Shown here: positions 1,336 to 29,003 of the stretch, piece after piece
Numbering within the stretch: position 1 is the first letter of the stretch
Layout: every line of letters begins with the position of its first letter
Assembly (NCBI GenBank): GCA_041495865.1
Contig: JBGQDL010000002.1
Span: 1 to 58,850, forward strand
From: Thermoanaerobaculia bacterium
GTDB lineage: Bacteria; Acidobacteriota; Thermoanaerobaculia; UBA5066
Length of the DNA stretch: 58,850 nucleotides
Direction of reading: 5' to 3'
Made by a program: the position numbers and the translations under genes
Notes under the pieces: generated by a model
The model's database searches: none
Told to the model about the DNA's origin: nothing
Seen by the model: the letters and a program-made list of their open reading frames with translations, nothing else

Positions 1336-2829
1336 ATGGACCTCGAGAACGCTGCCTGCGTGAAAGCGATTCAGAGCCGCGACGCCCGTTTCGCGGGCCG
1401 GTTTTTCGTCGGCGTCGTGACGACGCGCGTCTACTGCCGGCCCGGCTGCCCCGCGCCGCTCCCGAAACCGAAGAACATGCGTTTCTACGCGTATGCCGCG
1501 GCCGCGGAAGACGCCGGCTTCCGCCCGTGTCGGCGTTGCCGGCCGGAGACCGCGCCCGGCTCGCCCGTCTGGGACGGCACGTCCGCGACGGTCTCGCGCG
1601 CGCTGAAGCGGATCTTCGACGGCGACGGCCACGAGTCGGTCGAAGCGCTCGCGGAGCGACTCGGCCTCGGCTCGCGGCACCTCCGGCGGCTTTTCGCGGA
1701 GCACGTCGGCGCTTCTCCCGCTTCGCTCCAGCGCACGCATCGCGTCCACTTCGCGCGGCGGCTGCTAGACGAGACGTCGCTCCCGGTCGCGGAAGTCGCG
1801 TTCGCGGCCGGCTTCGAGAGCGTGCGCCGCTTCAACGACGCGATTCGCGCGACGTTCCATCGCACCCCGCGCGAGCTGCGAAGAGAATCGAGACCCCGGG
1901 CGGGCGCAGAAGTGAGGGTCGGGCCCGGCGGGCACGTCGTGCGGCTGACGCTCCCGTTGAGGCTCCCGTTCGATGCGGCGTCGCTTTTTTCTTTCCTTGA
2001 AGACCGCGCCCTACCGGGGGTCGAAGCGGTCCGCGGGCACGCTTACTTTCGCACGATCGAAAGCCGCGGACGCGCCGGGGTTCTCGGCGTCTCGTACGAG
2101 GAGGGGAAACCTTCTCTCGCTCTCACGCTCGATCTTCCGCCGGGCCCGGACCTCCTCGATCTCGTGCGTCGCGCGGGGCGAGTTTTCGATGTCGACGCGG
2201 ACCCTCTCGCGATCGCCGACGTGCTGCGCCGGGACCCGCTCCTCGCTCCGCTCGTCTCGGCCCGCCCCGGACTCCGCGTGCCGGGGGCCTGGGACGCGTT
2301 CGAGCTGGCCGTCCGCGCGATCCTCGGCCAGCAAATCTCCGTGCGGGGTGCGCGCACGCTCGCCGGCCGGCTCGTCGCGGCGTTCGGACGCCCGCTCCCG
2401 GGCGAAGGCGCGGGCGGATTGACGCACGTCTTTCCGCCGCCGGCCGTTCTCGCGGCGGCCGACCTCTCCCGGATCGGCGTCCCACGCTCCCGCGCGGCGG
2501 CGATCCGGACCCTTGCCGGCGCCGTTCATGCCGGGAGACTCGAGCTCGCCGCTCCCCGTGGGCTCGACGACTTCGAGAACCGCATGACGGCGTTGCCGGG
2601 AGTCGGACCCTGGACGGCGCAGGTCGTCGCCCTCCGCGCGTTCGGCGAGCCCGACGCGTTTCCGGCGGGGGACCTCGGCTTGCGCCGCGCTTTCGAAGCC
2701 GCCGGGCTTCCGGCGGACGCCGCGGCGCTCCGGGCGCGCGCCGCCTCCTGGAGTCCCTACCGCGCGTACGCGACGCTGCACCTCTGGAATTCGCTCGCCG
2801 CTCCCGCCGGAAAAAAGGAGACACGATGA
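1336..2829 (+). CDS. Ada (Zn-binding N-domain + AraC HTH) fused to AlkA-type DNA-3-methyladenine glycosylase II
   Basis: N-terminal CRPGCPA...FRPCRRCRPE is an Ada Zn-Cys4 motif. AraC-type HTH follows (LAERLGLGSRHLRRLF...VAEVAFAAGFESVRRFNDA). C-terminal HhH-GPD is present (ILGQQISVRGA...LPGVGPWTAQVV). Confidence 0.85.
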   Translation: MDLENAACVKAIQSRDARFAGRFFVGVVTTRVYCRPGCPAPLPKPKNMRFYAYAAAAEDAGFRPCRRCRPETAPGSPVWDGTSATVSRALKRIFDGDGHESVEALAERLGLGSRHLRRLFAEHVGASPASLQRTHRVHFARRLLDETSLPVAEVAFAAGFESVRRFNDAIRATFHRTPRELRRESRPRAGAEVRVGPGGHVVRLTLPLRLPFDAASLFSFLEDRALPGVEAVRGHAYFRTIESRGRAGVLGVSYEEGKPSLALTLDLPPGPDLLDLVRRAGRVFDVDADPLAIADVLRRDPLLAPLVSARPGLRVPGAWDAFELAVRAILGQQISVRGARTLAGRLVAAFGRPLPGEGAGGLTHVFPPPAVLAAADLSRIGVPRSRAAAIRTLAGAVHAGRLELAAPRGLDDFENRMTALPGVGPWTAQVVALRAFGEPDAFPAGDLGLRRAFEAAGLPADAAALRARAASWSPYRAYATLHLWNSLAAPAGKKETR

Positions 2830-3338
2830 ACACCACGCCCCTTCTCTTAACCGAGCTCGACACGCCGGCCGGCGCGATCGCCTTCGCGCGCCGCGGCGAG
2901 CGGCTCGTCGCGCTCTCCTTCAAGGACCACTGGCCGAGGCTCCTACGAGAGCTGGAAGCGCGCTTCGGCGACCTCGAGCTCACTCCGGACGCGACCGGCG
3001 GGCAGGCCGGTCGCGCGCTCCGGCGCTACTTCGGCGGCGATCTCCGCGCGCTCGACGCGCTCGAGGTCGACACGGAAGGGACGTCATTCCAGGAGAAAGT
3101 CTGGTCGCGTCTGCGGCGAATTCCCGCCGGCTCGACGCTATCCTATGCGCAGCTCGCGCGCGCGATCGGGAAGCCCTCCGCCGTCCGGGCAGTGGCCGGC
3201 GCGAACGCGCGGAATCCCGTTTCGGTCGTCGTGCCGTGCCACCGGGTCATCGCATCGGACGGAAAGCTCTCCGGGTATGGAGGCGGGATTCCGCGAAAAA
3301 GATGGCTTCTGACACATGAGGGCGCGCTCATCGCGTAG
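2826..3338 (+). CDS. ogt: methylated-DNA--protein-cysteine methyltransferase
   Basis: PCHRVI active-site motif. ATGA overlap with the upstream gene. AGGAG lies upstream of the ATG. Confidence 0.9.
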   Translation: MNTTPLLLTELDTPAGAIAFARRGERLVALSFKDHWPRLLRELEARFGDLELTPDATGGQAGRALRRYFGGDLRALDALEVDTEGTSFQEKVWSRLRRIPAGSTLSYAQLARAIGKPSAVRAVAGANARNPVSVVVPCHRVIASDGKLSGYGGGIPRKRWLLTHEGALIA

Positions 3339-12250: not shown

Positions 12251-14029
12251 CTAGCGAATGCCCGCCTCGCGCAGCTCGACGCTGCGCTCCACGCAAACCT
12301 GTCGGGCCGCGCGAAGCACCGCGGGGTCGAGGTCGGTGATGGCGACGATGACCTCGTCCGCCGGGTCGGCGTCGAGGACTTGGGGCAGCATGGCGAGCGG
12401 GCCGAGCACCGGCGAGCCGTTCAGACGGCGGCCGATCTTGTCGGGACTGTCGTCGAGGAAGCCGATCACCCGAGAGCGGGCGTGACGGTCGTTCTTGAGC
12501 AGTCGCAGCACGGCATCGCCCAGGTTCCCGGCACCGAGGATCACCACCCGTCGCCCACCGGGGCCTCGGAAGGGGTCCAGCACCTCGGCGATCGAGCGCG
12601 TTGCCATGCGCGCGAGAGCCACCGCTGCCGTGGTGAGGATGGCATCGAGGACGATGACGGCCTGGGAGTGCACGGCGATGCCTCCGGTGAAGACAAGGAA
12701 GGCGACGAAGAAGAGCGAGGAGATGGCGACTCCACGTACGATGGCCAGCAGGTCGGCCAGCGCGAAGGCTCCCGGCACGCTCCGGTAGACGCCGGCGGCG
12801 AAGAACGAGACGAGCCGGAGGGTGATCACGATCGGCAGCATGCGGGTCAGCAGCTCGGTCTGCGCACTCGCCAGGGTACCTCCCCACCGCAAGAGCGTTG
12901 CGGCCAGGTACGCGCCACAGATCAGTGCGAGGTCGACGATCACCTCGACGACGCGGGTCTTGTGGGCGACGAACGCATCGAGCAGGAAGAAGCCACGGCT
13001 GCGCGCCGCCGAGATCGCCGCCGCGTCACGCTGGTAGACGGGCAGGGAGCCCAGGTAAGCCCCGAAGTAGTAGACGACGAGCGTGGCGATCAGCGACAGC
13101 AGCACCAGCACGGTGCCGGGGAGGGAGTCGAGCGCCAGCGACGTCGCTCCGCCCAGCGCCGCCAGGGCCCACAGCACGAGGACGGCGTTGCGCTCGGGGA
13201 TGCCCAGCGAGACCAACCGGTGGCTGGTGTGGTCGCGCCCGCCCTGGGAGATTCGCCGCCCGGCCAGCAAGCGCAGCACGGTAACCAGAGTGGTATCAAA
13301 GATCGGTACCAGGAGGACGAAGACGGGGACCGCCAGCGTCGCCAGCGTCGTCACCGGCCGTGCTCCGAGGTCGACGAGCGACAGCGCGCCGAGCGCATAG
13401 CCGAGAAAGAGACTCCCGCAGTCCCCCATGAAGACCGTGGCGGGAGTGAAGTTGTAGAGCAGGAATCCCAGGCAAGCGCCGACGAGGCAAAGTGAGGTGG
13501 TGGCAAGGAGCCCGTTTCCCCATCTCAGGGCGTGGAGGGCCAGGACCCCTGCCGCCACCGCGGCCACGCCCGCCGCCAGGCCGTCCATGTTGTCCAGCAG
13601 GTTCATGGCGTTGGTAATGCCGACGATCCACGCCATCGACAAGACCACGGAGACGACGGGATGGAGGCCGGGGATCCGGAGCCCGTAATAGATGGGTAGC
13701 AGGGAAAGCGCGATCTGCGCGATGAGCTTGGTGGCGGGACGGATGCGTATCAGGTCGTCCACGAGGCCCACGACCGCCATCGCCGCCGCACCCACCGCGA
13801 CGCTCAGCCACAGCGGCAATCGGGGCCAGCCGACGAGGGCCACAGCGGGGAGCAGCGCCGCAACGACAATGGCGGGCCCGCCGAGCAGCGCTGTCGGCCG
13901 GCGATGCCAGCGGTCCTCATTGGGCCTGGCGACGAACCCTCGGCGGGTGGCGATGGCGCGGGCCAGCGGAGTGAAGGCGGCCGCAAGGCCGAAGGCGACG
14001 GCGAGCAGGAGAAAGGGACGGGCGCTCAT
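12251..14029 (-). CDS. WecA/MraY-family polyprenyl-phosphate HexNAc-1-P transferase fused to a 4-TM + Rossmann (CoA_binding_3-like) module
   Basis: VDDL, NAMNLLDNMDGLA, MGDCGSLFLGY and DHTSHRL motifs are present. The C-terminus VVILGAGNLGDAVLRLL...VIGFLDD...PVLG resembles the N-terminal module of WbaP/PglF. ATG at 14029 overlaps the upstream TGA (ATGA). The 862-aa ORF start is rejected. Confidence 0.85.
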   Translation of the reverse strand: MSARPFLLLAVAFGLAAAFTPLARAIATRRGFVARPNEDRWHRRPTALLGGPAIVVAALLPAVALVGWPRLPLWLSVAVGAAAMAVVGLVDDLIRIRPATKLIAQIALSLLPIYYGLRIPGLHPVVSVVLSMAWIVGITNAMNLLDNMDGLAAGVAAVAAGVLALHALRWGNGLLATTSLCLVGACLGFLLYNFTPATVFMGDCGSLFLGYALGALSLVDLGARPVTTLATLAVPVFVLLVPIFDTTLVTVLRLLAGRRISQGGRDHTSHRLVSLGIPERNAVLVLWALAALGGATSLALDSLPGTVLVLLSLIATLVVYYFGAYLGSLPVYQRDAAAISAARSRGFFLLDAFVAHKTRVVEVIVDLALICGAYLAATLLRWGGTLASAQTELLTRMLPIVITLRLVSFFAAGVYRSVPGAFALADLLAIVRGVAISSLFFVAFLVFTGGIAVHSQAVIVLDAILTTAAVALARMATRSIAEVLDPFRGPGGRRVVILGAGNLGDAVLRLLKNDRHARSRVIGFLDDSPDKIGRRLNGSPVLGPLAMLPQVLDADPADEVIVAITDLDPAVLRAARQVCVERSVELREAGIR

Positions 14030-14997
14030 ATGGCCAAGCGGTGGTAATCGGCGATTCGCTCGATGATCCGGGACAGCGAGGTGCGAGGAGTGAATCCGAT
14101 CAGATGGCGAATCCTGTTGAGGTCCGGGATGCGCCGCGGCATGTCCTCGAAGCCGCTGGCGTAGGCTTCGGCATACGGGACGAAGACGATCTCCGACCTG
14201 CTCCCCAGCTGCTCGCGGACGAGGTGGGCGAGGTCGTACATGGTGACCTCCTCCAGGCCGCCGATGTTGTAGATCTGCCCCCATGCCTCGCGCCGCTCGA
14301 CCAGGCGCGTGAGCGCCCAGACCACGTCGGCGACGTCGCAGAAACAGCGCGACTGCGTACCGTCCCCGAAGACGGTGAGGGGCGAGTTCGCGAGGGCTTG
14401 GCGGACGAAGCGGGGGAGCACCATCCCGTATCGCCCGGTCTGCCGCGGGCCCGCGGTGTTGAACAGGCGAACGATGCAGACCGGGAGCGACTTCTCGTGA
14501 AAGTAGGCGATCGCGAGGAACTCGTCGAGAGCCTTGCTGCACGCGTAGGCCCAGCGGCCGCGGGTAGTGGCGCCGAGGACCAGGTCGTCGTCCTCGCCGA
14601 AGGGAAGCTTGGTGGACTTGCCGTACACCTCGGAGGTCGAGGTGATGAGCACGGGCTTCTTCTGCTGGTTGGCGAGCTCGAGCACGATCTCGGTGGCTCG
14701 GACGTTGGTTTCGATGGTGCGCACGGGGCTCTCGACCACCAGTTGGACCCCCACCGCCGCCGCCAGATGGAAGATCATGTCGGCGCGCTCCACGAGGCTC
14801 GCCAGCAGCTGGCGATTCATCACCGTATCGATCGTGCACTCGAACGCCGGGTGACCCTTCAGGTGTTGGACGTTCTCGATGCTCCCGGTGGAGAGATCGT
14901 CGATGACGAGGACACGATGCCCCTGCGCGAGGAGGCGCTCGGCGAGATGACTGCCGATGAAACCGGCGCCGCCAGTGATCAAATCGGTCCTGATCAT
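14026..14997 (-). CDS. NAD-dependent epimerase/dehydratase (extended SDR; UDP-sugar epimerase or decarboxylase type)
   Basis: ITGGAGFIGSHL Rossmann motif. The YACSK catalytic motif is YxxxK. 323 aa. Confidence 0.9.
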   Translation of the reverse strand: MIRTDLITGGAGFIGSHLAERLLAQGHRVLVIDDLSTGSIENVQHLKGHPAFECTIDTVMNRQLLASLVERADMIFHLAAAVGVQLVVESPVRTIETNVRATEIVLELANQQKKPVLITSTSEVYGKSTKLPFGEDDDLVLGATTRGRWAYACSKALDEFLAIAYFHEKSLPVCIVRLFNTAGPRQTGRYGMVLPRFVRQALANSPLTVFGDGTQSRCFCDVADVVWALTRLVERREAWGQIYNIGGLEEVTMYDLAHLVREQLGSRSEIVFVPYAEAYASGFEDMPRRIPDLNRIRHLIGFTPRTSLSRIIERIADYHRLAI

Positions 14998-15315
14998 CGC
15001 GGAGCCGAAAGGGCTCAGGCCGGCACCACGTGGGGGTCGCCGCCGCAGTAAACGCGGGGCCCGGCCAGCCGCTCGACGACGTACTCCGGCATGCGGACGT
15101 TCACCTCTTGCACTGGGCGCCCCGAAACTGGCGGAGAGTGCTCATGCATGCTAGCGCCGCTGCCTCGCGTTCGCCAAGCGTCCTGCCGGCGGCCCCTGGG
15201 CAGGCTCCCACAGCCGGGAACCCGCTGGCGAGCCATCCCCCTGGGAGGCCGCTGCCGGTGGCGGCTGGGCCGGCGGTTGAGGCCCTTTGCGTCGACGGGT
15301 AAGCTGCCGCCGTCC

Positions 15316-15573
15316 ATGTCACCGCACGAGACAGTGGCGGCGTTCCTGCGGGCGCGCTTTCGCCCCTCCCTTCGGAGCGGCCAGCTCGGACTCGACCAGC
15401 CACTGCTGTCGAGCGGCATCGTCGACTCCTTCGGCGTCCTGGAGCTCATCGCCTTTCTCGAGGACACCTTCCACGTCACCATCTCTCCGTCGCGCCTCGA
15501 GATGACGGAGCTCGAGACCGTCAATCGCATCGTGGCGCTGGTCGAGCGGGTACGCCAGGGAACGGGCGGCTGA
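15316..15573 (+). CDS. phosphopantetheine-type carrier protein, DltC-like
   Basis: 85 aa. LLSSGIVDSFGVLELIAFLEDTF contains the DSx Ser (Ser38). The DSFG..EL context resembles D-alanyl carrier proteins rather than the FAS ACP DSLD motif. Its stop overlaps the next ATG (TGATG). Confidence 0.75.
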   Translation: MSPHETVAAFLRARFRPSLRSGQLGLDQPLLSSGIVDSFGVLELIAFLEDTFHVTISPSRLEMTELETVNRIVALVERVRQGTGG

Positions 15574-16514
15574 TGACCTACGTCTACGATCTGACGCTCG
15601 GGCTCCCTCACACCAATCATCGTGGGCTTTCCGAGCACCTGCTGCTCGAGTACGCCGGCCACTTTCAGTGGCAATCGATCTGCGCCGCGGCCGGCGCTCC
15701 GCTTTCCAGGCTGCGGTCCACCGCCGGCAACGAGGTCTATGCCAGCTTCTACTACATCGAGGAGCGCATTCCGCCCACCGCGCCGCTCGAGTCCTTCGGG
15801 CTCGACGACACCTTGCGGTTCGCCATCGCCCTGCGGTCGTTCAAGAACATCGTCCTCGAGGGACGGCTGGTCTTCGATCGCCGCGAGCGCCTGCCGGACA
15901 CGCGGCGCTTCGAGGCGATGCTGGCAGCCACGACCGGCGACATCGCCTCGCCGTTCATCCGCTTCGCCAACATCTTCATCACGCCGGAGGGCGGCAACAG
16001 CCGACTCCGCGTGGCACCGCCGGCAGACGTCGACTTCTCGGCTCTTCCAGCCCTGCCAAACGACGACAATCCGTACCATCTGACCCGCGCCGCCAGCGAG
16101 CACGGCAGGCTCGGCGTGCTGGACGAAGCATGGTTGCCGGTCGGCGCCTTCCAGCACCGCTACGACATCGACGTCGATCGGGACACCAATGGCGCCGGTC
16201 TGGTCTACTTCGCCAACTTCGTGGCGTTCATGGACACTGCCGAGCGCCTGGCGCTGCGCACGCTTGCGCTTGCGGGCGGGGACGTCGGCGCCTCGGCCCG
16301 GCGGTCGTTGCGACATCGCCGCATCGCGTACTACGGCAACGCGGGTTTGTCCGACACGCTGCTCGTGAGAGTGACGATCCTGCGCCACCCGGCGCACCCT
16401 GACCGCCTGGGATTCCGCTATTCCGTCGAGCGCCAGGAAGACCACGAAGCGATTTGCCTTTCGGAGGCGATCAAGGCTCTTCCCATCGGCGCCTGCGAGA
16501 TCGGCGTCTCGTGA
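15573..16514 (+). CDS. double hot-dog fold protein, LnmK-like acyltransferase/decarboxylase candidate
   Basis: 313 aa in two halves. The N-terminal half has GLPHTNHRGLSEHLLLEYAGHFQW. The C-terminal half has DIDVDRDTNGAGLVYFANFVAFMDTAE, which resembles the 4HBT-type hot-dog signature. Assignment is from memory of the family and is not searched. Confidence 0.6.
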   Translation: MTYVYDLTLGLPHTNHRGLSEHLLLEYAGHFQWQSICAAAGAPLSRLRSTAGNEVYASFYYIEERIPPTAPLESFGLDDTLRFAIALRSFKNIVLEGRLVFDRRERLPDTRRFEAMLAATTGDIASPFIRFANIFITPEGGNSRLRVAPPADVDFSALPALPNDDNPYHLTRAASEHGRLGVLDEAWLPVGAFQHRYDIDVDRDTNGAGLVYFANFVAFMDTAERLALRTLALAGGDVGASARRSLRHRRIAYYGNAGLSDTLLVRVTILRHPAHPDRLGFRYSVERQEDHEAICLSEAIKALPIGACEIGVS

Positions 16515-17533
16515 GAACGCGATTCACCCGGCGACTGGCGTTCGCCGTGCTCTGGCTCGCCGTGTTCGATCAGTTCGTGCCGCGTCTGCTGCGGCGCGTA
16601 GAGAGGGAGCGCTACGAGGCCGGTAGCGTCTTCCGCTTCGAGAACTCCGACCTCTTCGCGCTGGGCCCCCTGGTGTCCTACCTGCGAGAGCATCCGCAGG
16701 GCAATCGCCGGCGAGTCGTCTTCCTCGGCAACTCGATCATCTTCGGCTACGGACTTGCCGCTGCCGAGGCGATCCCTGCCCAGTTCCAGGAGCAGCAACC
16801 GGGCACCAGGGTTTTCAACGCGGCGTTCAACAGCGCCGGGCTGGGCAGCAGCTACCTGATCGCCAAGGCCATCGTCGAGGCGGTCGACGGCTTGGTCGTC
16901 CTCATCGGCTCCCCAGGCACGGCCCATGACATGCTGCCGTCGCTGATCCCGGTCGAAGAGAGCGACCGCCGCGCCTTCGCGCTGCGTCCGCCCGATCGGA
17001 TCGAGCGCCGCCTCCAGTCGCTCGCCGGCGTCTGGCGGCTGTACGCGTACCGGTATCGACTACAGGCTGCGCTCTTCTCAACCTCCACAAGGCAGTACGT
17101 CTATTTGCACAAGCGGGACATCGTGCGCCGTCTCGTGACCCCCTTCACCTCGCCGCCTCCCCCGCCGCCGACACCCTGGCGTCCAAGCGACGACCGCGCG
17201 GTATTGCGGGCGCCCCGGTCCGCGAGCCCGCTGGACGCGGAGGGCCGGCGCCAGCTCCGACAGAACCACCAACTCTTGTGCCAGTTCGCCGATCTGGCTC
17301 GTTCCCACCGGAAACCGGCGGTGTTCGTCCAGGTGGTTGACGTCAGCGTCGAGCTCAGCGACTCGGAAGCGGCCGACTTCAACGCGATGTTCGCCCCCTT
17401 TGCCGAAACCGTCAACATCGGCTTGCCTCCGTCGCTGAGGATCGACACCATGCACCTGACGCCCCAAGGGGCGCATGCGGTTGCGGTGGCGCTCTCCCGG
17501 TACGACAGCGAGCGAGAGATCGGGCGGAGATGA
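16511..17533 (+). CDS. membrane-anchored SGNH/GDSL-like protein (DltD/AlgJ-like candidate O-acyltransferase)
   Basis: GTG at 16511 overlaps the upstream TGA (GTGA). N-terminal anchor is RLAFAVLWLAVF. VVFLGNSIIFGYG is block I, with Ser75. RIDTMHLTPQGAH is block V, DxxH. Confidence 0.6.
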   Translation: MRTRFTRRLAFAVLWLAVFDQFVPRLLRRVERERYEAGSVFRFENSDLFALGPLVSYLREHPQGNRRRVVFLGNSIIFGYGLAAAEAIPAQFQEQQPGTRVFNAAFNSAGLGSSYLIAKAIVEAVDGLVVLIGSPGTAHDMLPSLIPVEESDRRAFALRPPDRIERRLQSLAGVWRLYAYRYRLQAALFSTSTRQYVYLHKRDIVRRLVTPFTSPPPPPPTPWRPSDDRAVLRAPRSASPLDAEGRRQLRQNHQLLCQFADLARSHRKPAVFVQVVDVSVELSDSEAADFNAMFAPFAETVNIGLPPSLRIDTMHLTPQGAHAVAVALSRYDSEREIGRR

Positions 17534-18687
17534 TCTTCACCGACCTTCGCTTCCTGGTGCTGTTCGCCGCCTGCTGGGGGTGCTTTTTCACGCTGCCACG
17601 CAGCTGGCGCCCGTCCGTGCTCGCCTTCTGGGGCGCCGTCTTCTACCTGACCTACGCCGGGACTTTCCTGGCGGCGGTCCTCGTCCTCGTCGGGTTGGTC
17701 CATTCTTCCGGCCGGCGGCCGCTGGCTTGGGCCGCAGGAACAACGACAATCGCCCTGCTGGCGTATTTCAAGCTCACGCTCCGCGCCAGCCCGCTGCCCG
17801 CGACAGACACGGGTCCGGCCGCGATCCTCATCCCGCTCGGCTTCTCGTATCTCGCCTTCGAGCTGCTGCACGTGGTGATCGAGCGCCACCGCGGCCGTAT
17901 CCAGGTTCTGCGCCTGGCGGATCTGCTCGCTTTCGCGTTCTTCGCGCCGGCGCGCATCGCTGGGCCGATCAAACGCCTTCCGGAGTTCACCGCCGCGGTC
18001 CAGGCGGCCACGCTGTCGGGCGCCAACGTGTACGCGGGCGTTCTGCGTGTGCTCATCGGCCTTGCCAAGAAGCTGCTGGTGGCAGACGTCCTCGCGCTGA
18101 CCGTGGCCGAGAGCTCCTACGTCAGCACCACGCGCCACGCCTGGACGATCGTGCTCGCATTCTCCTTACAGATCTATTTCGACTTCAGCGCCTACTCGGA
18201 CATCGCCATCGGGTTCGCTCGCCTGATGGGTATCGAGCTGCCGGAGAACTTCCGGTGGGCCTATCTGGCAAGCAACATCCGCGACTTCTGGAATCGCTGG
18301 CACATCACGCTGTCGCACTGGGTGCGCGACTACGTGTTCATGCCGACCGCGAGCGCTCTCTTCCAAACCAGGCTGCGGCGGTGGCCACCGGCCATCGCCG
18401 CCATCAGCTATCTCCTCGCCTTCCTCATCGTCGGCGCGTGGCACGGCGCCACCGGGGCGTTCCTCGTCTGGGGGCTCTATCACGGTATCCTGCTCGCTCT
18501 CTTCCATTTCGTCCGCCTGAAGACGCCGGCGCGGATCGCCGATCACCCGCTCTACCGCTCGCGCGTGGCGAAGGGACTCGCCGTCGCAGTAACATTCGCG
18601 TGTGTCACGCTCGGATGGGTGCCGTTCATGCTGCCGCTGAAGGAAGCGCAGAGGCTCCTGGGGATTATGTTTGGAGCCTCGAGGTGA
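17530..18687 (+). CDS. MBOAT family membrane-bound O-acyltransferase (DltB/AlgI-like)
   Basis: 385 aa, polytopic. YSDIAIGFARLMGIELPENF...NIRDFWNRWHITLSHWVRDYVF contains the conserved MBOAT His. ATGA overlap with the upstream gene. Confidence 0.9.
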   Translation: MIFTDLRFLVLFAACWGCFFTLPRSWRPSVLAFWGAVFYLTYAGTFLAAVLVLVGLVHSSGRRPLAWAAGTTTIALLAYFKLTLRASPLPATDTGPAAILIPLGFSYLAFELLHVVIERHRGRIQVLRLADLLAFAFFAPARIAGPIKRLPEFTAAVQAATLSGANVYAGVLRVLIGLAKKLLVADVLALTVAESSYVSTTRHAWTIVLAFSLQIYFDFSAYSDIAIGFARLMGIELPENFRWAYLASNIRDFWNRWHITLSHWVRDYVFMPTASALFQTRLRRWPPAIAAISYLLAFLIVGAWHGATGAFLVWGLYHGILLALFHFVRLKTPARIADHPLYRSRVAKGLAVAVTFACVTLGWVPFMLPLKEAQRLLGIMFGASR

Positions 18688-18794
18688 GGGCGTTGCTGAA
18701 GGACGTGCTCGTTGGCTTGGCGCTCGCGGTGCTGGTGGCCGTGTTGCTCCTTTTCGCCTCGTTCGACTCCACGTTCATCTATCGTGGTTTTTAG
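18684..18794 (+). CDS. 36-aa single-TM micro-protein with C-terminal FIYRGF (DltX-like)
   Basis: GTG at 18684 overlaps the MBOAT TGA (GTGA). Translation is VRALLKDVLVGLALAVLVAVLLLFASFDSTFIYRGF*. It is not listed as a separate ORF in the track, where it is the tail of the spurious 17475..18794 ORF. Confidence 0.55.
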   Translation: MRALLKDVLVGLALAVLVAVLLLFASFDSTFIYRGF

Positions 18795-18845: not shown

Positions 18846-20426
18846 ATGACACGACCCCTCGGTGCCGATCCGCCCGACCCATTTTCCGCGGGTGAGCCCG
18901 CCGCCACCCTTTCGTCCGAAGGCACGACCGGTCAAGTCGTGCGGGGGAGCCTGTGGTATTCCGGCGGGCAGGGCGTCACGCTGCTGGCCGCCCTGACGGC
19001 CACCCCGTTCGTGATCCGCGTGCTCGGTCCGGAGCAATACGGCGTTCTGGCGCTCATGAATGTACTCACCGCCTGTCTTGCGTTCAGCGATCTGGGAATG
19101 GGGATCGCCTCGACGCGCTTCGGGGCGGAGGCGCACGCGCGCGGTGACGACGACGGGGAGGCGGCGGCGATCTGGGCAGGCCTGCTGCTCGGCGCTCTGC
19201 CGGCCACGCTCGCAGCCACGGCTCTGGCAGCAGGGGCAAGCCCCCTGCTTCGGGCCCTGCACGTGCCCGCGCGCCTGCAGGACGAGGCGACAATTGCCCT
19301 GCGTCTGGCCGCCATCGGCATCGTGGCCCGGGTCGTGACCGGGGTGTTCAACACCCCGCAGCTGGTGCGGTTGCGTATGCGCCTGCACGCCGCGGTGACG
19401 ACCGCAGGCAGCGTCCTGCAGATCGCCGGCATCCCGGTGGCCTTGTCACTCGGCGCCGGCCTCGTGGGCGCCGGCGCGGTGATCGCCGGCGTCGGCATCG
19501 TCACCGCGGTATGCCAGACGTTGATCGCCCGCCGCATCCTGCCGCGCCTCGCCCGCCCGCGGTTCGAGCGACGGCTGTTCGGACGCCTGGCACGGTTCGG
19601 CGGCGCCATCGTGGTGAGCAGCTTCACCGGCCTGCTGCTCACCAACGGCGAGAAGCTCTTCCTCACTCGCCTGGTCTCCGTCGAGGCCCTGGCGTATTAC
19701 ACCGTCGCCTTCTCGCTCGCCAATCTGCTGATCATTCCAGCCGCCGCTTTGTACCACGCCATGCTGCCGACGTTCACGAGGTACCAGGCGAACGGGCAAT
19801 GGGAGGACCTGGCGCGCATCTACGGCGAGCTCCTGCGCGGCGTCTTGTTGATCATGCCGCTCATCGCGCTGGCGCTCTTCGCTGGAGCGAGACCCTTTTT
19901 CACGCTCTGGGCTGGCCCCCGCTTCGGCATGACCAGCACTCCGCTCTTCTTCGTCATGATCGTGGGCGTATTCACGATGGTCAGCGCTTACGTGCCGGCC
20001 TGTCTGCTGGTCGCCGTGGACCGCGCCGGCTTCGGCGCCCGCTACAACCTTCTCGAGTTGATTCCGTACCTGCTGCTGGCACTCCTCCTCACAGCACGCT
20101 GGGGCGGCGCCGGCGCGGCTGCGGCCTGGAGCCTGCGCTCGGTGGTGGCACTGCCCGTCTTTCTGCTGGCGGCGCGACGGAGCCTCGCCCTCCGCCATGC
20201 AACACCGTCGCCTTTGGGGGCCGTCTATTTCTCGGCGCTGGCGCTGCTGGTGTTGCCGTCGATTGCGGCTGCCTTGCTCGGCATCTCCTGGCCTCTGCTG
20301 CCGCTGGCCGCCGTGACTTCCTCTGCGGTGTACCTGTGGATCGTCTTCGCGCGGCTGTTGGATGAACGGGAAAGGGGCTGGATCAGGTCTAAGCTGCTGG
20401 TCAAGTGGCCCGCCGGGGCGGCGTAG
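18846..20426 (+). CDS. oligosaccharide flippase (Wzx/MOP superfamily)
   Basis: 526 aa with about 12-14 TM segments. N-terminal GGQGVTLLAALTATPFVIRVLGPEQYGVLAL is typical of polysaccharide biosynthesis (Polysacc_synt) proteins. Confidence 0.8.
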   Translation: MTRPLGADPPDPFSAGEPAATLSSEGTTGQVVRGSLWYSGGQGVTLLAALTATPFVIRVLGPEQYGVLALMNVLTACLAFSDLGMGIASTRFGAEAHARGDDDGEAAAIWAGLLLGALPATLAATALAAGASPLLRALHVPARLQDEATIALRLAAIGIVARVVTGVFNTPQLVRLRMRLHAAVTTAGSVLQIAGIPVALSLGAGLVGAGAVIAGVGIVTAVCQTLIARRILPRLARPRFERRLFGRLARFGGAIVVSSFTGLLLTNGEKLFLTRLVSVEALAYYTVAFSLANLLIIPAAALYHAMLPTFTRYQANGQWEDLARIYGELLRGVLLIMPLIALALFAGARPFFTLWAGPRFGMTSTPLFFVMIVGVFTMVSAYVPACLLVAVDRAGFGARYNLLELIPYLLLALLLTARWGGAGAAAAWSLRSVVALPVFLLAARRSLALRHATPSPLGAVYFSALALLVLPSIAAALLGISWPLLPLAAVTSSAVYLWIVFARLLDERERGWIRSKLLVKWPAGAA

Positions 20427-25627: not shown

Positions 25628-26905
25628 ATGAGGCGAGCGCTGCGAGTCGCCATCAACGCACAGATCCCGGGTGATGGATCGAGCGGCGGCATACAACAGG
25701 CGCTCGTCGCCCTGCTGCGCTCCTTGTCCGCTGCACCATCGGACGATGCCGTCTACCTGGTGTTGAGCGGGCGCCGTGACACAGACTGGCTTCAGGAGGC
25801 AGCTGGTGAGTCGACTTTGCTCTGTCCTCGTCCCTTGACGGTTGTCGAGCCCGCGCCTCAGCCCAGGGATCGAATTTCGCCGCGGCGCCTCGCGGTGACC
25901 GCGCGGTCGCTCGGGCTGCGGACGCTCGGCCGCCTGCGGAGCGAGGCTCTTCCTGCCTCGCCCGCCGAGTGGATGAAGGCGCTGGGGGCCGACCTCGTCC
26001 ACTTTCCATATCAGCGGCTCTTTCCGACGGCGGTCCCGTACGTCATCAACCCGTGGGATCTCCAGCACCTGCACCTTCCGGAGATGCTCGACGAAGGTGT
26101 CGTGCGCCAGCGCACCGCAGGATATGAATCGGCATGTATTGGTGCGGCGGCGGTGGTCGTCGGCACCCCGTGGGTGCGCAATGACGTCACCGCCCGTATG
26201 GGCGTTTTGCCGAAGCGGGTCCATGCGGTTCCCCTTGCCGCGCCAGCGCCCTTCACGATTCCCACGGCGGACATCCGGCGGGTTCACGCCCGGCTGGGAG
26301 TGCGGGAGCCGTTCCTGCTCTATCCTGCCCACACCTTTCCCCATAAGAACCATTTGCAACTGCTGGAATGCCTGGCTCGGCTCCGTCATCGCGGCATTCG
26401 AGCCCAGTGCCTCTGCCCCGGAGGTCGAAGCCCCTTCGCCGCCGTGATCGAGGAGGCCGTGCTCCGGCTCGGGTTGGAGGCGGAGGTGAGCTTCCCCGGA
26501 TTCGTTGGCGAGAGCGAGCTGCGCGCGCTCTACGCCTCATGCCGGATGGTCGTGTTCCCTTCCCTGTTCGAAGGCTTCGGACTGCCTCTGCTGGAGTCCT
26601 TCGCCGGCAGCGCACCCGTGGCGTGCTCGGACCTGCCGCCGCTGCGGGAGGTGGCCGCAGACGCGGCTCTCTACTTCGATCCTCGCGATCCCGATGTCAT
26701 GGCCGACACGCTGGCCGAAGGCCTCTGCTCGGAGCCTCTCCGCCGACGGCTGATCGATCGTGGCCGCTTGCGGCTCGGCTTTTTCGCGCCCCGGCAGGTA
26801 GGCGCCGCCATGCGCGCGGTGTATCGGCTGGCGCTGGAGGAGGTGGCGTTGCCGGCAGATGCGGCGGCCCTCGACGCATTCCAGAGCGGGCCCTGGACGT
26901 CATGA
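25628..26905 (+). CDS. glycosyltransferase family 4 (GT-B)
   Basis: ATG at 25628. FPSLFEGFGLPLLESFAGSAPVACSD is the E-x7-E motif. Confidence 0.85.
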   Translation: MRRALRVAINAQIPGDGSSGGIQQALVALLRSLSAAPSDDAVYLVLSGRRDTDWLQEAAGESTLLCPRPLTVVEPAPQPRDRISPRRLAVTARSLGLRTLGRLRSEALPASPAEWMKALGADLVHFPYQRLFPTAVPYVINPWDLQHLHLPEMLDEGVVRQRTAGYESACIGAAAVVVGTPWVRNDVTARMGVLPKRVHAVPLAAPAPFTIPTADIRRVHARLGVREPFLLYPAHTFPHKNHLQLLECLARLRHRGIRAQCLCPGGRSPFAAVIEEAVLRLGLEAEVSFPGFVGESELRALYASCRMVVFPSLFEGFGLPLLESFAGSAPVACSDLPPLREVAADAALYFDPRDPDVMADTLAEGLCSEPLRRRLIDRGRLRLGFFAPRQVGAAMRAVYRLALEEVALPADAAALDAFQSGPWTS

Positions 26906-26931
26906 CGCGCGTGGACCCCGATGCTCGCGCC

Positions 26932-27073
26932 GACCTATGGCATCCTCGGAAGCTCGAGCTGCAAATGGCGCGCTTCGCGGCCGACTCCTCGCCCGGTCTC
27001 GTTCAAAGCGGCGTCGAGACCTTCGGCGCCAGTCATATCCGACGCCTCTTCCAACGGACGCTCGCGCGATAGC
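26932..27073 (+). pseudogene. collapsed relic of the GT2 gene at 23749-24630 (internal piece joined to the last codons)
   Basis: DLWHPRKLELQMARFAADSSPGLVQSGVETFGA parallels DLWLPRKLERQLARFAADSALGLVHCGVETFGE (24013-24109). RLFQRTLAR* parallels RLFRRTLAR* (24601-24630). About 490 nt in between are missing. Confidence 0.6.
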
Positions 27074-27095
27074 TTCGCTGCTCATGTGCGGCATC
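27043..27095 (+). repeat. copy B of duplicated junction (GT2 3' end + TAG + asnB ATG)
   Basis: cgcctcttccaacggacgctcgcgcgatagc...atgtgcggcatc. See copy A. Confidence 0.6.
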
Positions 27096-29003
27096 TTCGG
27101 AGCGGTGTTCCTGGCCGACGGTGAGGTCGCTCACGTCGAGCCAGCTCTGGCCACCCTCTTCCATCGCGGTCCCGACGGCGACGGCGTCTTTCGCGACAGC
27201 GGCGTGGTCCTGGGCTTCCGGCGTCTGGCCATTCTCGACCTCACGCCCGCCGGCGGGCAGCCGATGGTCTCCGCCGACGGCTCGGTGGCGGTCGTTTTCA
27301 ACGGCGAGATCTACAACCATCACGAGCTGCGCAACGAGCTGGCCGCGCTCGGCCACCGGTTCCGCTCGCGCAGCGACACGGAGGTCATCGTCGAGGGTTA
27401 TGGCGCCTGGGGCGATGGCGTTTTCGGGAGGCTCGACGGCATGTTCGCCATCGGCATCTGGGATGCGAGGCACCGACGCCTGCTGCTCTGCCGCGATCGG
27501 GCCGGCAAGAAGCCTCTCTTCTATTCACACGGCACCGATGGCGCGCACTCGATCCGTTTCGCCTCCGAGGCCAAGGCCATCCTCGCCTCCGGCCACGCCG
27601 CCGAGATCGATCTCGCCGCCCTTTCCTACGTGCTCTCCTTCGGCTACACCCCGCCGCCCGGGACGATGTATCGCGGCATCTCCCAGCTGCCGCCCGCGAC
27701 CGTGATGTCGTGCGAGAGCGGGAAGGCACCTCAATGGCGGCGTTACTGGCGCGCCCCCTTCGCCGCCGCGCCTCTGGAGGTCACGGTGCCGCAAGCGACG
27801 GCCGAGATCCGTCGATTGTTCGATGCCGCAGTCCGCCGGCGAATCGAGGCCGACGTGCCGCTCGGCGCCTTCCTCTCCGGCGGCCTCGATTCGACCATCG
27901 TCGTCGGCACGATGGCGCGCCTGCTAGGTCCCGGCGTACGGACCTTCTCCATCGGGTTCGCCGGCGATCCTCGCTACGACGAGACCAGCTTCGCCCGGCT
28001 CGCGGCGCGCACCTTCGCCACCCGACACGTCGAGTTCACGCTCGAGCCCTCGTCGTTCGCTCTCGCCGAACGCCTCGTCGCCCTCCACGATGGGCCCTTC
28101 GGCGACTCCTCGGCGATCCCAAGCACGGTGATTTCCATGCTCGCTCGGGAGCACGTCACGGTAGCCCTCACGGGCGACGGCGGCGACGAGCTCTTCAGCG
28201 GATATCTCCGCTTCCTTGCGGCGGATGCGGCGGAGAAGGTTCCCAGGTGGCTGCTGCGCGCCGGTGAGCTCCTGGTGGAGCGTCTCCCGTACGCAAACGG
28301 TGAGCGCTCGGCCGTCGCGCGCGTCAGGCGCTTCCTTGCCGCGGCGCGGATGCCTCTCGCCGACCGGCTGACGCGCTGGAGCTCGCTGTTCGCCTTCGAG
28401 CTCGACCAGCTCCTCCTCCCCGAGATCCGCGCCCAGGCCGCTGCCGACGCGCCACTCGGCTGGATGCGCGCCATCGTCGCGGAGAGCCGCGGAGCCACGA
28501 CGCTCGCACGCATTCTCGACCACAACTTCTCGACCTACCTGCCCTGCGATCTCCTGGTCAAGGCAGACCGCACCTCGATGGCCCACGGCCTCGAGCTGCG
28601 GTCGCCTTTCCTCGACACCGCGCTCGTCGAGTACGTCTCCCGCCTGCCCGACTCGTTCAAGCGCCGCGGAATGACGACGAAGTGGATCCTCCGTCGCGCG
28701 TTTCGCGATCTGCTGCCTCCACGCATCGCCGGCCGCGGCAAAATGGGCTTCGGCATCCCCCTCGGCACCTGGTTTCGTGGCGACCTGAAGGAATATTTGT
28801 ACGACCACCTCTCGGCAACGGCACTGCTCTACAGCCTCGTGGATCGCCGGTTCGTCGAACGGCTCCTCGACGACCACCTGGAGATGCGCGCCGATCACGG
28901 TCACCGCTTGTGGCTCCTCCTCACCCTGGAGCTCTGGCTGCGGTCTCTCTCTCGCGCTCGCTCCCCAGGGTCGCGGCCAGCGGCGCCAGCGACAGGGGCA
29001 TGA
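27084..29003 (+). CDS. asparagine synthase (glutamine-hydrolysing) family amidotransferase
   Basis: MCGIFG is an Ntn nucleophile N-terminus. SGGLDS is a PP-loop. 639 aa. The upstream 26859 start is rejected because it reads through the GT2 relic. Confidence 0.9.
   Translation: MCGIFGAVFLADGEVAHVEPALATLFHRGPDGDGVFRDSGVVLGFRRLAILDLTPAGGQPMVSADGSVAVVFNGEIYNHHELRNELAALGHRFRSRSDTEVIVEGYGAWGDGVFGRLDGMFAIGIWDARHRRLLLCRDRAGKKPLFYSHGTDGAHSIRFASEAKAILASGHAAEIDLAALSYVLSFGYTPPPGTMYRGISQLPPATVMSCESGKAPQWRRYWRAPFAAAPLEVTVPQATAEIRRLFDAAVRRRIEADVPLGAFLSGGLDSTIVVGTMARLLGPGVRTFSIGFAGDPRYDETSFARLAARTFATRHVEFTLEPSSFALAERLVALHDGPFGDSSAIPSTVISMLAREHVTVALTGDGGDELFSGYLRFLAADAAEKVPRWLLRAGELLVERLPYANGERSAVARVRRFLAAARMPLADRLTRWSSLFAFELDQLLLPEIRAQAAADAPLGWMRAIVAESRGATTLARILDHNFSTYLPCDLLVKADRTSMAHGLELRSPFLDTALVEYVSRLPDSFKRRGMTTKWILRRAFRDLLPPRIAGRGKMGFGIPLGTWFRGDLKEYLYDHLSATALLYSLVDRRFVERLLDDHLEMRADHGHRLWLLLTLELWLRSLSRARSPGSRPAAPATGA

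What the first reader, a model, noticed from the sequence alone, without database searches (positions are those of the whole stretch)
15573..16514. Double hot-dog (LnmK-like) protein in the position of the carrier-loading enzyme
The 313-aa product has an N-terminal segment LPHTNHRGLSEHLLLEYAGHFQW. A second-half segment, DIDVDRDTNGAGLVYFANFVAFMDTAE, looks like a 4HBT-type hot-dog signature. LnmK of the leinamycin pathway is a double hot-dog bifunctional acyltransferase/decarboxylase of about 320 aa that converts methylmalonyl-CoA to propionyl-S-ACP. If this protein works the same way, the relayed group could be acetyl or propionyl generated decarboxylatively from malonyl- or methylmalonyl-CoA. 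That would be an unusual donor route for polysaccharide O-acylation. An acyl-ACP thioesterase (also a double hot-dog) is the alternative reading.
Basis: inference. Interest (0 to 1): 0.7.

Follow-up and report, generated by a model that had tools for sequence, protein, structure and literature searches.

The report
LnmK-type loader feeding a Dlt-like relay
This gene encodes a genuine relative of the polyketide enzyme LnmK that sits, with a small carrier protein, inside a five-gene membrane relay resembling the Gram-positive D-alanylation (Dlt) machinery, so it probably supplies a short acyl group, made by decarboxylation, to decorate a surface polysaccharide by a route not yet described.

Summary
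ORF 15573..16514 (+) encodes 313 aa and contains both quoted segments. NCBIfam TIGR04098 (LnmK family) scores 140 bits against a cutoff of 100. The best PDB sequence hits are LnmK. An AlphaFold model matches LnmK structures at TM 0.81-0.87, against about 0.55 for FatA and other acyl-ACP thioesterases. LnmK's Tyr62, Phe65 and loop Asn align with Y56, F59 and N206, which are invariant in 76-77 relatives. The Asp used by 4HBT/YbgC thioesterases is replaced by this Asn. The gene is translationally coupled into a five-gene unit: DltC/PCP-like carrier, LnmK-like protein, membrane-anchored SGNH protein, DltB-like MBOAT, and a previously unnoticed 36-aa microprotein ending FIYRGF (the DltX-type FxYxxF acyl-shuttle motif). 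A Wzx flippase and glycosyltransferases follow. The unit is conserved across about 90 loci and persists, reordered, at 30% identity. Natural carrier-LnmK fusions exist. The window holds no DltA-like enzyme, PKS or HMG-CoA synthase. Most likely the protein loads acetyl or propionyl onto the carrier for periplasmic polysaccharide O-acylation. The family name is already auto-annotated, but I found no published description of the system. The acyl group and all activities remain untested.

The parts
15316..15573 (+). Stand-alone 85-aa phosphopantetheine carrier protein of the DltC / type II PCP kind, with the attachment serine in GIVDSFG. The mechanical ORF from 15091 is an over-extension.
   Evidence: Pfam PP-binding scores 28.5 bits, above the 20.8 cutoff. 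The best PDB hits are a type II PCP (2my5, E 3e-7) and DltC (6bug_A, 8jf2_F, E 4e-5), with the serine aligned to the carrier serine. An ATG lies at 15316. A homologous carrier lies immediately upstream of the LnmK-like gene in 77 of 78 loci with enough flank.
15573..16514 (+). The finding itself: a 313-aa double hot-dog protein of the LnmK family, proposed acyl-CoA:carrier acyltransferase/decarboxylase. Putative catalytic residues are Tyr56, Phe59 (backbone) and Asn206.
   Evidence: TIGR04098 scores 140.3 bits against a cutoff of 100. PDB phmmer finds LnmK at E 2e-11. AF2 model plus Foldseek gives TM 0.81-0.87 to LnmK. Y56 and F59 are conserved in 77/77 and N206 in 76/76 relatives.
16511..17533 (+). 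340-aa protein with an N-terminal membrane anchor and an SGNH-fold domain, the functional counterpart of DltD or PatB. Putative triad Ser75/Asp312/His315. No existing family model matches it.
   Evidence: The GTG start overlaps the LnmK-like stop codon (GTGA), and the database gene call is the same 340 aa (P0121). G73, S75, N103, N107, D312 and H315 are invariant in 21 homologues. The AF2 model has pLDDT 82.7 with a long N-terminal helix. The best folds are SGNH TesA-type enzymes (target TM 0.64-0.67, E 2e-4), and DltD matches only weakly (E 7e-3 to 5e-2). Pfam gives no hit even at E 10.
17530..18687 (+). 385-aa DltB-like MBOAT. It has the short DltB-type architecture, without the fused C-terminal shuttle motif of PatA or AlgI.
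   Evidence: Pfam MBOAT E 9e-20. TIGR04091 DltB scores 212 bits, below the equivalog cutoff of 375. The only PDB sequence matches are DltB structures 8jem and 6bug (E 2e-35), with the invariant His of the W-H-G motif aligned. The ATGA overlap with the preceding gene is shown.
18684..18794 (+). 36-aa single-pass membrane microprotein VRALLKDVLVGLALAVLVAVLLLFASFDSTFIYRGF. Its C-terminal FIYRGF fits the DltX-type FxYxxF acyl-shuttle motif, with Tyr33 as the putative acyl acceptor.
   Evidence: Translation and GTGA overlap with the MBOAT stop codon. The same gene, ending ...STFIYRGF, follows the MBOAT in 34 of 44 loci and is called as a 36-37-aa gene in independent assemblies. The motif definition comes from PMC12148441. 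The Pfam scan at E<=10 returned no family.
18846..20426 (+). Wzx-type polysaccharide flippase, 51 nt downstream on the same strand. It is context that points to the likely target polymer. Glycosyltransferases, a methyltransferase and an AsnB-like amidotransferase follow up to about 29003.
   Evidence: Pfam Polysacc_synt E 4e-17.

Best explanation
The 313-aa protein is a member of the LnmK family of double hot-dog acyltransferase/decarboxylases. It acts as the cytoplasmic loading enzyme of a five-gene, Dlt-like acylation relay, in the place that the adenylating enzyme DltA holds in the D-alanylation pathway. The proposed steps are as follows. (1) It binds a malonyl-type CoA thioester (malonyl- or methylmalonyl-CoA) and decarboxylates it on the RDTNGAG loop (Asn206). 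The resulting enolate deprotonates Tyr56, and an acetyl- or propionyl-O-Tyr56 enzyme intermediate forms. (2) The acyl group passes to the phosphopantetheine thiol of the adjacent DltC-like carrier. (3) The acyl-carrier docks on the DltB-like MBOAT, whose conserved His transfers the acyl group to Tyr33 of the FIYRGF tail of the 36-aa microprotein on the periplasmic face. (4) The membrane-anchored SGNH protein takes the acyl group on Ser75 and esterifies a hydroxyl of the Wzx-dependent polysaccharide encoded next door. What is shown: family membership, fold, conservation of the catalytic residues, the gene order and its conservation, and the existence of carrier fusions. What is inferred: decarboxylation, the acyl group, the direction of transfer, and the target polymer.
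For: Family and fold. TIGR04098 scores 140.3 bits against a cutoff of 100, E 7e-41, over residues 8-295. LnmK is the best PDB sequence match. Foldseek ranks 1-7 are LnmK with TM 0.81-0.87, while thioesterases reach TM about 0.55.

Catalytic residues. LnmK Tyr62 and Phe65, whose roles are given in PMC11350588, align with Y56 and F59. The loop Asn that LnmK uses for decarboxylation (PMC8666670) most likely corresponds to N206. These positions are conserved in 77/77, 77/77 and 76/76 relatives, including a 30%-identity relative.

Cassette. The carrier, SGNH fold, DltB-like MBOAT and FxYxxF microprotein are joined by 1-4-nt overlaps.

Conservation. In loci with enough flank, the carrier is present in 77/78, the SGNH protein in 53/58, the MBOAT in 44/45 and the microprotein in 34/44. 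The same five parts appear in a different order in L009 at 30% identity and, in part, in L079. Independent gene calls agree.

Fusions. Of ten fused relatives scanned, eight have a PP-binding domain beside the LnmK-like domain.

No alternative loader. No AMP-binding enzyme, PKS or HMG-CoA synthase was found among the large ORFs with coding-like GC3 that I scanned across the window.
Against: Identity to LnmK is only about 20%, and the Pfam LnmK_N_HDF hit is just below its gathering score (24.4 against 26.5 bits). Several pocket-proximal positions differ from LnmK: T61 to V55, L63 to A57, W141 to F135, and Q256/Q257 to invariant R249/R250. The substrate may therefore differ. The AF2 model is unreliable (pLDDT below 50) exactly at the 205-210 catalytic loop. 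My assignment of the decarboxylation Asn to N216 of LnmK is an inference from the alignment, because the primary LnmK structure papers were not available. A subclade has no detectable microprotein, and one locus has no MBOAT at all. The microprotein matched no Pfam family at E<=10, and the SGNH protein resembles DltD only weakly. There are no biochemical or genetic data.
Confidence: 0.7

Rival explanations
1. The protein loads the carrier directly from an ordinary acyl-CoA (for example acetyl-, propionyl- or 3-hydroxybutyryl-CoA) through the Tyr56 acyl-enzyme, without any decarboxylation. The place in the relay is the same, but the chemistry at the first step differs.
For: The cassette logic and the carrier fusions only require a loader, not a decarboxylase. 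Pocket residues differ from LnmK, notably the invariant R249/R250 in place of Q256/Q257. Related MBOAT systems such as PatA use plain acetyl-CoA.
Against: In LnmK, Tyr62 is activated by the enolate produced by decarboxylation (substrate-assisted catalysis; PMC11350588). No alternative general base is evident. The loop Asn linked to decarboxylation is invariant. If plain acetyl-CoA sufficed, a carrier and a loader would be unnecessary, as in PatAB.
Confidence: 0.13
2. It is a hydrolytic hot-dog thioesterase, either acyl-ACP thioesterase-like or YbgC/4HBT-like. It would edit or release acyl groups from the carrier, and some other enzyme would load the carrier.
For: Double hot-dog acyl-ACP thioesterases are the next-best structural class (E about 3e-11). 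The C-terminal half matches YbgC-type thioesterases (TIGR02799 E 5e-6; 5v10 E 1.4e-6).
Against: Thioesterases score far below LnmK in both sequence and structure. The nucleophilic or base Asp of the 4HBT-I/YbgC motif ([TC]-D-x(2)-G-[IV]-V; PMC516016) is Asn206 here, as it is in LnmK. No acyl-ACP thioesterase family appears in Pfam at E<=0.01. The conserved cassette contains no other candidate loader, and the window has no AMP-binding enzyme.
Confidence: 0.06
3. It is only a malonyl-carrier decarboxylase, like MadB. A housekeeping malonyl-CoA:ACP transacylase (FabD) would malonylate the carrier, and this protein would then convert malonyl-carrier to acetyl-carrier.
For: Hot-dog malonyl-ACP decarboxylases that use a loop Asn exist (PMC8666670), and Asn206 is invariant.
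Against: The acyl-accepting Tyr and the adjacent Phe of LnmK are invariant, which a pure decarboxylase would have no need for. The carrier is of the DltC/PCP type rather than the FAS ACP type, which makes it an unlikely FabD substrate. The protein's family is LnmK, not MadA/B.
Confidence: 0.06

Closest known systems
LnmK (Streptomyces atroolivaceus, leinamycin pathway; PDB 4HZN-4HZP and 6X7L-6X7P), a bifunctional methylmalonyl-CoA:ACP acyltransferase/decarboxylase
   Same: Both are double hot-dog proteins of about 300 aa (TM 0.81-0.87) and fall under the same NCBIfam family, TIGR04098. The catalytic Tyr, the neighbouring Phe and the loop Asn are conserved. Both are encoded next to a dedicated small carrier protein.
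   Different: Sequence identity is only about 20%. LnmK feeds propionyl-ACP to an HMG-CoA-synthase beta-branching cassette of a polyketide synthase. Here there is no PKS or HMGS, the carrier is DltC/PCP-like, and the downstream consumer is an MBOAT/SGNH envelope-acylation relay. Several pocket residues differ, so the substrate may be malonyl-CoA or something else.
DltXABCD D-alanylation pathway of Gram-positive teichoic acids
   Same: The logic and four of the five parts are shared: carrier protein (DltC-like), short DltB-type MBOAT with the conserved His, a separate TM microprotein ending in FxYxxF (DltX-like), and a membrane-anchored SGNH transferase (DltD-like).
   Different: There is no DltA adenylating enzyme; an LnmK-type hot-dog enzyme takes its place, so the cargo is not D-alanine. 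The hosts are diderm or environmental lineages (Anaeromyxobacteraceae, Thermoanaerobaculia and other Acidobacteria). The genomic context is Wzx/glycosyltransferase polysaccharide genes, not teichoic acid genes. The MBOAT scores below the DltB equivalog cutoff, the microprotein matched no Pfam family at E<=10, and the SGNH protein is only remotely DltD-like.
PatA/PatB, AlgI/AlgJ/AlgX and WssH-type MBOAT-SGNH O-acetylation systems of Gram-negative bacteria
   Same: These also modify periplasmic glycans through an MBOAT, an acyl-Tyr in an FxYxxF motif and an SGNH transferase (PMC12148441).
   Different: According to PMC12148441 those systems use acyl-CoA directly, lack a carrier protein and lack a separate microprotein, with the motif fused to a longer MBOAT. 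This cassette has a carrier, a dedicated loader and a separate microprotein.
FatA/FatB and bacterial acyl-ACP thioesterases (double hot dog)
   Same: They share the overall double hot-dog topology.
   Different: The structural match is much weaker (TM about 0.55, E about 1e-11) and there is no sequence-family match. Hydrolytic residues are not evident, and the 4HBT-type Asp is an Asn.

Membership tests
LnmK family (TIGR04098) acyltransferase/decarboxylase | Scores above the curated family HMM cutoff | tested here: met
   TIGR04098 scores 140.3 bits against a cutoff of 100, E 6.9e-41, over residues 8-295. The Pfam N-domain model LnmK_N_HDF is marginal at 24.4 against 26.5 bits.
LnmK family (TIGR04098) acyltransferase/decarboxylase | Double hot-dog fold in a single chain of about 300 aa that superposes on LnmK | tested here: met
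   The AF2 model has pLDDT 82.3 and pTM 0.85. Foldseek ranks 1-7 are LnmK with TM 0.81-0.87 and E 6e-23 to 8e-21.
LnmK family (TIGR04098) acyltransferase/decarboxylase | Acyl-accepting Tyr62 and oxyanion-forming Phe65 (PMC11350588) | tested here: met
   They align with Y56 and F59 and are conserved in 77/77 relatives.
LnmK family (TIGR04098) acyltransferase/decarboxylase | Loop asparagine used for decarboxylation (PMC8666670) | tested here: inconclusive
   N206 in RDTNGAG aligns with the Asn of LnmK's RDVNGVG loop and is conserved in 76/76. I could not confirm from the primary papers that this is the Asn meant, and the model is of low confidence at this loop.
LnmK family (TIGR04098) acyltransferase/decarboxylase | A dedicated carrier protein encoded alongside (the LnmL equivalent) | tested here: met
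   The carrier gene overlaps the start codon. A carrier is present in 77/78 loci, and carrier fusions exist.
LnmK family (TIGR04098) acyltransferase/decarboxylase | Decarboxylative transfer from (2R)-methylmalonyl-CoA to the carrier | not testable with these tools
   This needs an enzyme assay with holo-carrier, intact-protein MS and CO2 detection.
LnmK-type polyketide beta-branching cassette (LnmK-LnmL-LnmM) | An HMG-CoA synthase and PKS nearby that consume the acyl-ACP | tested here: not met
   No ketosynthase, HMGS or PKS domain appears in any scanned ORF of the window.
Dlt (D-alanylation) pathway | DltA, an AMP-forming D-alanine:carrier ligase | tested here: not met
   No AMP-binding enzyme is present in the cassette or the window or in the related loci examined.
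Dlt (D-alanylation) pathway | DltB-type MBOAT with the catalytic His | tested here: inconclusive
   The only PDB matches are DltB (E 2e-35) with the W-H-G His aligned. However, TIGR04091 scores 212 bits, below the equivalog cutoff of 375. It is DltB-like, not a DltB orthologue.
Dlt (D-alanylation) pathway | DltX microprotein with a C-terminal FxYxxF acyl-shuttle motif | tested here: inconclusive
   The architecture and motif are met (36 aa, one TM segment, FIYRGF terminus). No Pfam family matched at E<=10.
Dlt (D-alanylation) pathway | DltD-type membrane-anchored SGNH transferase | tested here: inconclusive
   The SGNH fold, the invariant Ser/Asp/His and the N-terminal helix are present. DltD structures match only at E 7e-3 to 5e-2, and there is no family HMM hit.
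Acyl-ACP thioesterase (FatA/FatB) and 4HBT/YbgC thioesterases | A family HMM match and the catalytic Asp of the [TC]-D-x(2)-G-[IV]-V motif | tested here: not met
   No acyl-ACP thioesterase family appears in Pfam at E<=0.01. YbgC models score far below their cutoffs (26.7 against 141 bits). The motif Asp is Asn206.

The most novel reading that the evidence does not exclude
This would be the first carrier-protein-dependent glycan O-acylation pathway outside the Dlt system. An LnmK-type enzyme would make propionyl-carrier (or another non-acetyl short acyl-carrier) by decarboxylating methylmalonyl-CoA. A DltB/DltX/SGNH-like relay would then place that group on an exopolysaccharide in Myxococcota and Acidobacteriota. 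The related Hexapep-carrier-LnmK fusions would point to a parallel cytoplasmic route. Envelope-glycan acylation, rather than polyketide beta-branching, might then be the main role of the LnmK family.
Probability: 0.3. Interest if true: 0.8.

Novelty: new variant of a known kind. Interest (0 to 1): 0.68.

Why it matters
Recent work on bacterial MBOAT-SGNH acylation (PMC12148441) states that pathways other than Dlt lack a carrier protein and a DltX-like microprotein because they draw directly on acyl-CoA. This cassette is a counter-example, and it is conserved in many soil and sediment bacteria. It has the carrier and the microprotein, and it replaces the ATP-dependent DltA with a decarboxylation-driven hot-dog loader. 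If confirmed, it would widen the known donor chemistry for decorating cell-surface glycans. It would give the LnmK family, known only from polyketide beta-branching, a role in envelope biology. It would also make the acyl group directly identifiable from a small soluble two-protein assay. Acyl decoration affects polysaccharide charge, hydration, phage and lysozyme sensitivity and biofilm properties. A new acyl type on the exopolysaccharides of abundant Acidobacteriota would therefore be of ecological and materials interest.

Tried and rejected
1. FatA/FatB or YbgC thioesterase reading. I rejected it as the main explanation because the structural and HMM scores are far weaker than for LnmK and the catalytic Asp is an Asn.

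2. PKS beta-branching context. I rejected it because no KS, HMGS or PKS genes are in the window.

3. The long carrier ORF 15091..15573 (160 aa). I rejected it as an over-extension. Homology and the PP-binding match start after residue 75, and an ATG lies at 15316.

4. The 359-aa ORF start at 16454. I replaced it with the GTG at 16511, which gives a GTGA overlap and matches the database gene call.

5. Reading the primary LnmK papers to map the C2-methyl pocket (PMID 23320975, PMC3567400, PMC8515504) and the Schultz 2023 Dlt paper (PMC10664464). None of them is held. I could not decide between acetyl and propionyl.

6. Literature searches for LnmK with MBOAT, for TIGR04098, and for carrier-dependent MBOAT systems in exopolysaccharide loci. 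None found a description of this cassette.

7. Pfam scan of the microprotein. No family matched at E<=10.

8. The first tblastn pass suggested that L009 lacked the SGNH protein and the microprotein. Reading its ORFs showed that both are present, diverged and placed upstream.
Full report
**Observation.** The ORF at 15573..16514 (+) is real. It starts with ATG, ends with TGA, encodes 313 aa and contains both quoted segments. The window has 68.7% GC, and this frame has GC3 of 0.86, typical of coding frames here. Hundreds of full-length homologues exist in public data.

**What the protein is.**
- NCBIfam places it in TIGR04098, 'LnmK family bifunctional acyltransferase/decarboxylase', at 140.3 bits against a cutoff of 100 (E 7e-41, residues 8-295). 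YbgC-type thioesterase models match only the C-terminal half and fall far below their cutoffs.
- Pfam gives only a near-threshold LnmK_N_HDF hit (24.4 against 26.5 bits) and no acyl-ACP thioesterase family.
- Against all PDB sequences, the best hits are the LnmK entries 4HZN/O/P and 6X7L-P (E about 2e-11, residues 25-265).
- An AlphaFold2 model built from 19 homologues (pLDDT 82.3, pTM 0.85) was compared with the PDB. Ranks 1-7 are all LnmK (E 6e-23 to 8e-21, TM 0.81-0.87). FatA and bacterial acyl-ACP thioesterases begin at rank 8 (E about 3e-11, TM about 0.55).

**Catalytic residues.**
- According to PMC11350588, LnmK decarboxylates methylmalonyl-CoA, the enolate is stabilised at Phe65 and deprotonates Tyr62, and Tyr62 becomes propionylated before transfer to the ACP LnmL.
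- PMC8666670 adds that LnmK uses an Asn on a loop for decarboxylation.
- In the pairwise alignment, LnmK NPTY62LAF65YY matches NEVY56ASF59YY, and the LnmK loop RDVNGVG matches RDTN206GAG.
- Over 77 family sequences taken from fetched loci, including one at 30% identity, Y56 and F59 are conserved in 77/77 and N206 in 76/76.
- N206 occupies the position of the active-site Asp of the 4HBT-I/YbgC motif [TC]-D-x(2)-G-[IV]-V (motif from PMC516016). The canonical thioesterase nucleophile is therefore absent, as it is in LnmK.
- Assigning the 'decarboxylation Asn' to this position is my inference, because the primary structure papers were not available.
- Some positions differ from LnmK: V55 for T61, A57 for L63, F135 for W141, and the invariant R249/R250 for Q256/Q257. 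The model is unreliable at residues 205-210.

**Context in the window.** The gene is the second of five translationally coupled genes.
1. 15316..15573: an 85-aa carrier protein. PP-binding scores above its cutoff. The best PDB relatives are a type II PCP and DltC, with the serine of GIVDSFG aligned to the carrier serine. Its stop codon overlaps the LnmK-like ATG (TGATG).
2. 15573..16514: the LnmK-like protein.
3. 16511..17533 (GTGA overlap): a 340-aa protein with no Pfam hit even at E 10. G73, S75, N103, N107, D312 and H315 are invariant in 21 homologues. Its model has a long N-terminal helix and an SGNH-type core. The best matches are TesA-type SGNH enzymes (target TM about 0.65), and DltD matches only weakly.
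4. 17530..18687 (ATGA overlap): a 385-aa MBOAT. Its only PDB sequence relatives are DltB structures (E 2e-35), with the W-H-G His aligned.
5. 18684..18794 (GTGA overlap): a 36-aa single-pass microprotein ending FIYRGF.

PMC12148441 describes FxYxxF as the acyl-shuttle motif whose Tyr receives the acyl group from the MBOAT. In Dlt the motif sits on the microprotein DltX. In PatA and AlgI it is fused to the MBOAT.

A Wzx flippase starts 51 nt downstream. It is followed by GT2 and GT4 glycosyltransferases, a methyltransferase and an AsnB-like amidotransferase. A sugar epimerase/dehydratase, a WecA-like transferase and a GT4 lie upstream on the other strand. No AMP-binding enzyme, PKS or HMG-CoA synthase was found among the large ORFs with coding-like GC3 that I scanned across the window.

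**Conservation.**
- Nine loci came from species-representative genomes. One is a 97%-identical Anaeromyxobacteraceae MAG; most of the rest are Thermoanaerobaculia and other Acidobacteria. Eighty more came from metagenomes, and several from exact-protein look-ups.
- Counting only loci with enough flanking DNA, a carrier gene lies immediately upstream in 77/78. The SGNH-like gene follows in 53/58, the MBOAT in 44/45, and a microprotein ending ...STFIYRGF follows the MBOAT in 34/44.
- At least one 'missing' case reflects divergence rather than absence. L009 (30% identity) carries all five parts in the order microprotein (…NFEYKVF), SGNH-like, carrier, LnmK-like, MBOAT. L079 has the order microprotein, MBOAT, carrier, LnmK-like.
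- Real exceptions exist. One subclade has no detectable microprotein. L089 has a C-terminally extended MBOAT ending …PFIYR. L010 has the carrier and the LnmK-like gene beside a hexapeptide-repeat transferase and no MBOAT.
- Neighbouring genes are often glycan-related: Wzx, GT4s and AsnB in L095, ABC-transporter O-antigen-like genes in L011, and PMT_2 in L094. Sometimes they are unrelated.

**Family size and fusions.** An exhaustive HMMER search of 1.84 billion cluster representatives found only 390 relatives at E<=1e-3 and 42 at E<=1e-30, so the family is rare. Of ten longer relatives scanned, eight contain a PP-binding domain beside the LnmK-like domain. The layouts are carrier-LnmK (four proteins), Hexapep-carrier-LnmK (two), LnmK-carrier-thioesterase (one) and LnmK-ACP-KS-DH (one). 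These fusions independently support a carrier-directed function. The Hexapep fusions, together with L010, suggest a second, cytoplasmic consumer of the acyl-carrier.

**Most likely mechanism (confidence about 0.7).**
1. The protein takes a malonyl-type CoA thioester and decarboxylates it.
2. It forms an acyl-O-Tyr56 intermediate and loads acetyl or propionyl onto the carrier.
3. The acyl-carrier docks on the DltB-like MBOAT.
4. The acyl group moves to Tyr33 of the microprotein on the periplasmic side, then to Ser75 of the SGNH protein, and then onto a hydroxyl of the Wzx-dependent polysaccharide.

Everything after 'family member with conserved catalytic residues in a conserved Dlt-like cassette' is inference by analogy with LnmK and with Dlt and PatAB.

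**Rivals.** The alternatives are direct, non-decarboxylative loading from an ordinary acyl-CoA (0.13), a thioesterase or editing role (0.06), and a MadB-like malonyl-carrier decarboxylase (0.06). The remainder is unassigned. I could not decide between acetyl and propionyl.

**Comparison with known systems, and novelty.** At the level of protein family this is a member of a known family, and some public records already carry the automatic name 'LnmK family…'. At the level of the system it is a new variant. It is a Dlt-like relay in which DltA is replaced by an LnmK-type enzyme, found in environmental diderm lineages and next to polysaccharide genes. PMC12148441 states that non-Dlt MBOAT/SGNH pathways lack both a carrier protein and a DltX-like microprotein, and this cassette has both. 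Full-text searches found no paper that links LnmK with an MBOAT, that mentions TIGR04098, or that describes such a cassette. The searchable library is incomplete, so a prior description elsewhere cannot be excluded.

**Verdict.** Interest is 0.68, and novelty is 'new variant of a known kind'.

Noticed in passing
window 18684..18794 (+): A 36-aa transmembrane microprotein gene, too short for ordinary ORF lists, overlaps the MBOAT stop codon (GTGA) and ends in FIYRGF, which fits the DltX-type FxYxxF acyl-shuttle motif. It is nearly identical in dozens of loci (…LFASF[DN]STFIYRGF). A Pfam scan at E<=10 returned no family.
   Followed up: yes
window 16511..17533 (+): A 340-aa membrane-anchored SGNH-fold protein with invariant Ser75/Asp312/His315 matches no Pfam or NCBIfam model and is labelled 'hypothetical' in most records that carry a name. 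It appears to be an undescribed family of DltD/PatB-like transferases.
   Followed up: partly
L037, L040, L041, L042, L043, L084, L087: This subclade has carrier, LnmK-like, SGNH and MBOAT genes, but no FxYxxF microprotein in the flanks I searched (L037 and L043 both strands; the others only downstream of the MBOAT) and no C-terminal extension on the MBOAT. It is unclear where its acyl-shuttle tyrosine lies.
   Followed up: partly
L010 8738..10427; proteins P0316 and P0317: In L010 the carrier and LnmK-like genes sit next to a hexapeptide-repeat acyltransferase with no MBOAT nearby. Natural Hexapep-carrier-LnmK fusion proteins also exist. This suggests a second, cytoplasmic use of the acyl-carrier, perhaps acylation of a nucleotide sugar.
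   Followed up: partly
L009 264..4148: A relative at 30% identity from a low-GC MAG keeps all five components in a different order: microprotein ending NFEYKVF, SGNH-like, carrier, LnmK-like, MBOAT. A GT4 and a very large membrane protein follow.
   Followed up: partly
L089 5812..6786: The MBOAT carries a fused C-terminal extension of about 75 aa that ends …SSSPFIYR. It looks intermediate between the split (DltB plus DltX) and fused (PatA/AlgI) architectures.
   Followed up: no
window 14026..14997 (-); L001; L012 7641..8669: An NAD-dependent sugar epimerase/dehydratase gene lies divergently upstream of the carrier gene in the window and in at least two related loci. It may be a recurrent accessory of the cassette.
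   Followed up: no
window 12251..14839 (-): A long ORF combines a WecA/MraY-type Glycos_transf_4 domain with the N-terminal (CoA_binding_3) half of a WbaP-type polyprenyl glycosylphosphotransferase, but has no Bac_transf catalytic domain. Its 5' end overlaps the epimerase gene, so the true start must be later.
   Followed up: no
window 26859..29003 (+): An AsnB-like glutamine amidotransferase resembles the XrtA/PEP-CTERM-system amidotransferase TIGR03108 (512 bits, below the 817 cutoff). The same kind of gene sits directly upstream of the carrier gene in L095.
   Followed up: no
window 1336..3338 (+): An Ada/AlkA-type fusion (Ada Zn-binding, AraC HTH and AlkA glycosylase domains) is followed by an O6-methylguanine methyltransferase. 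This is an adaptive-response DNA repair pair unrelated to the finding.
   Followed up: no
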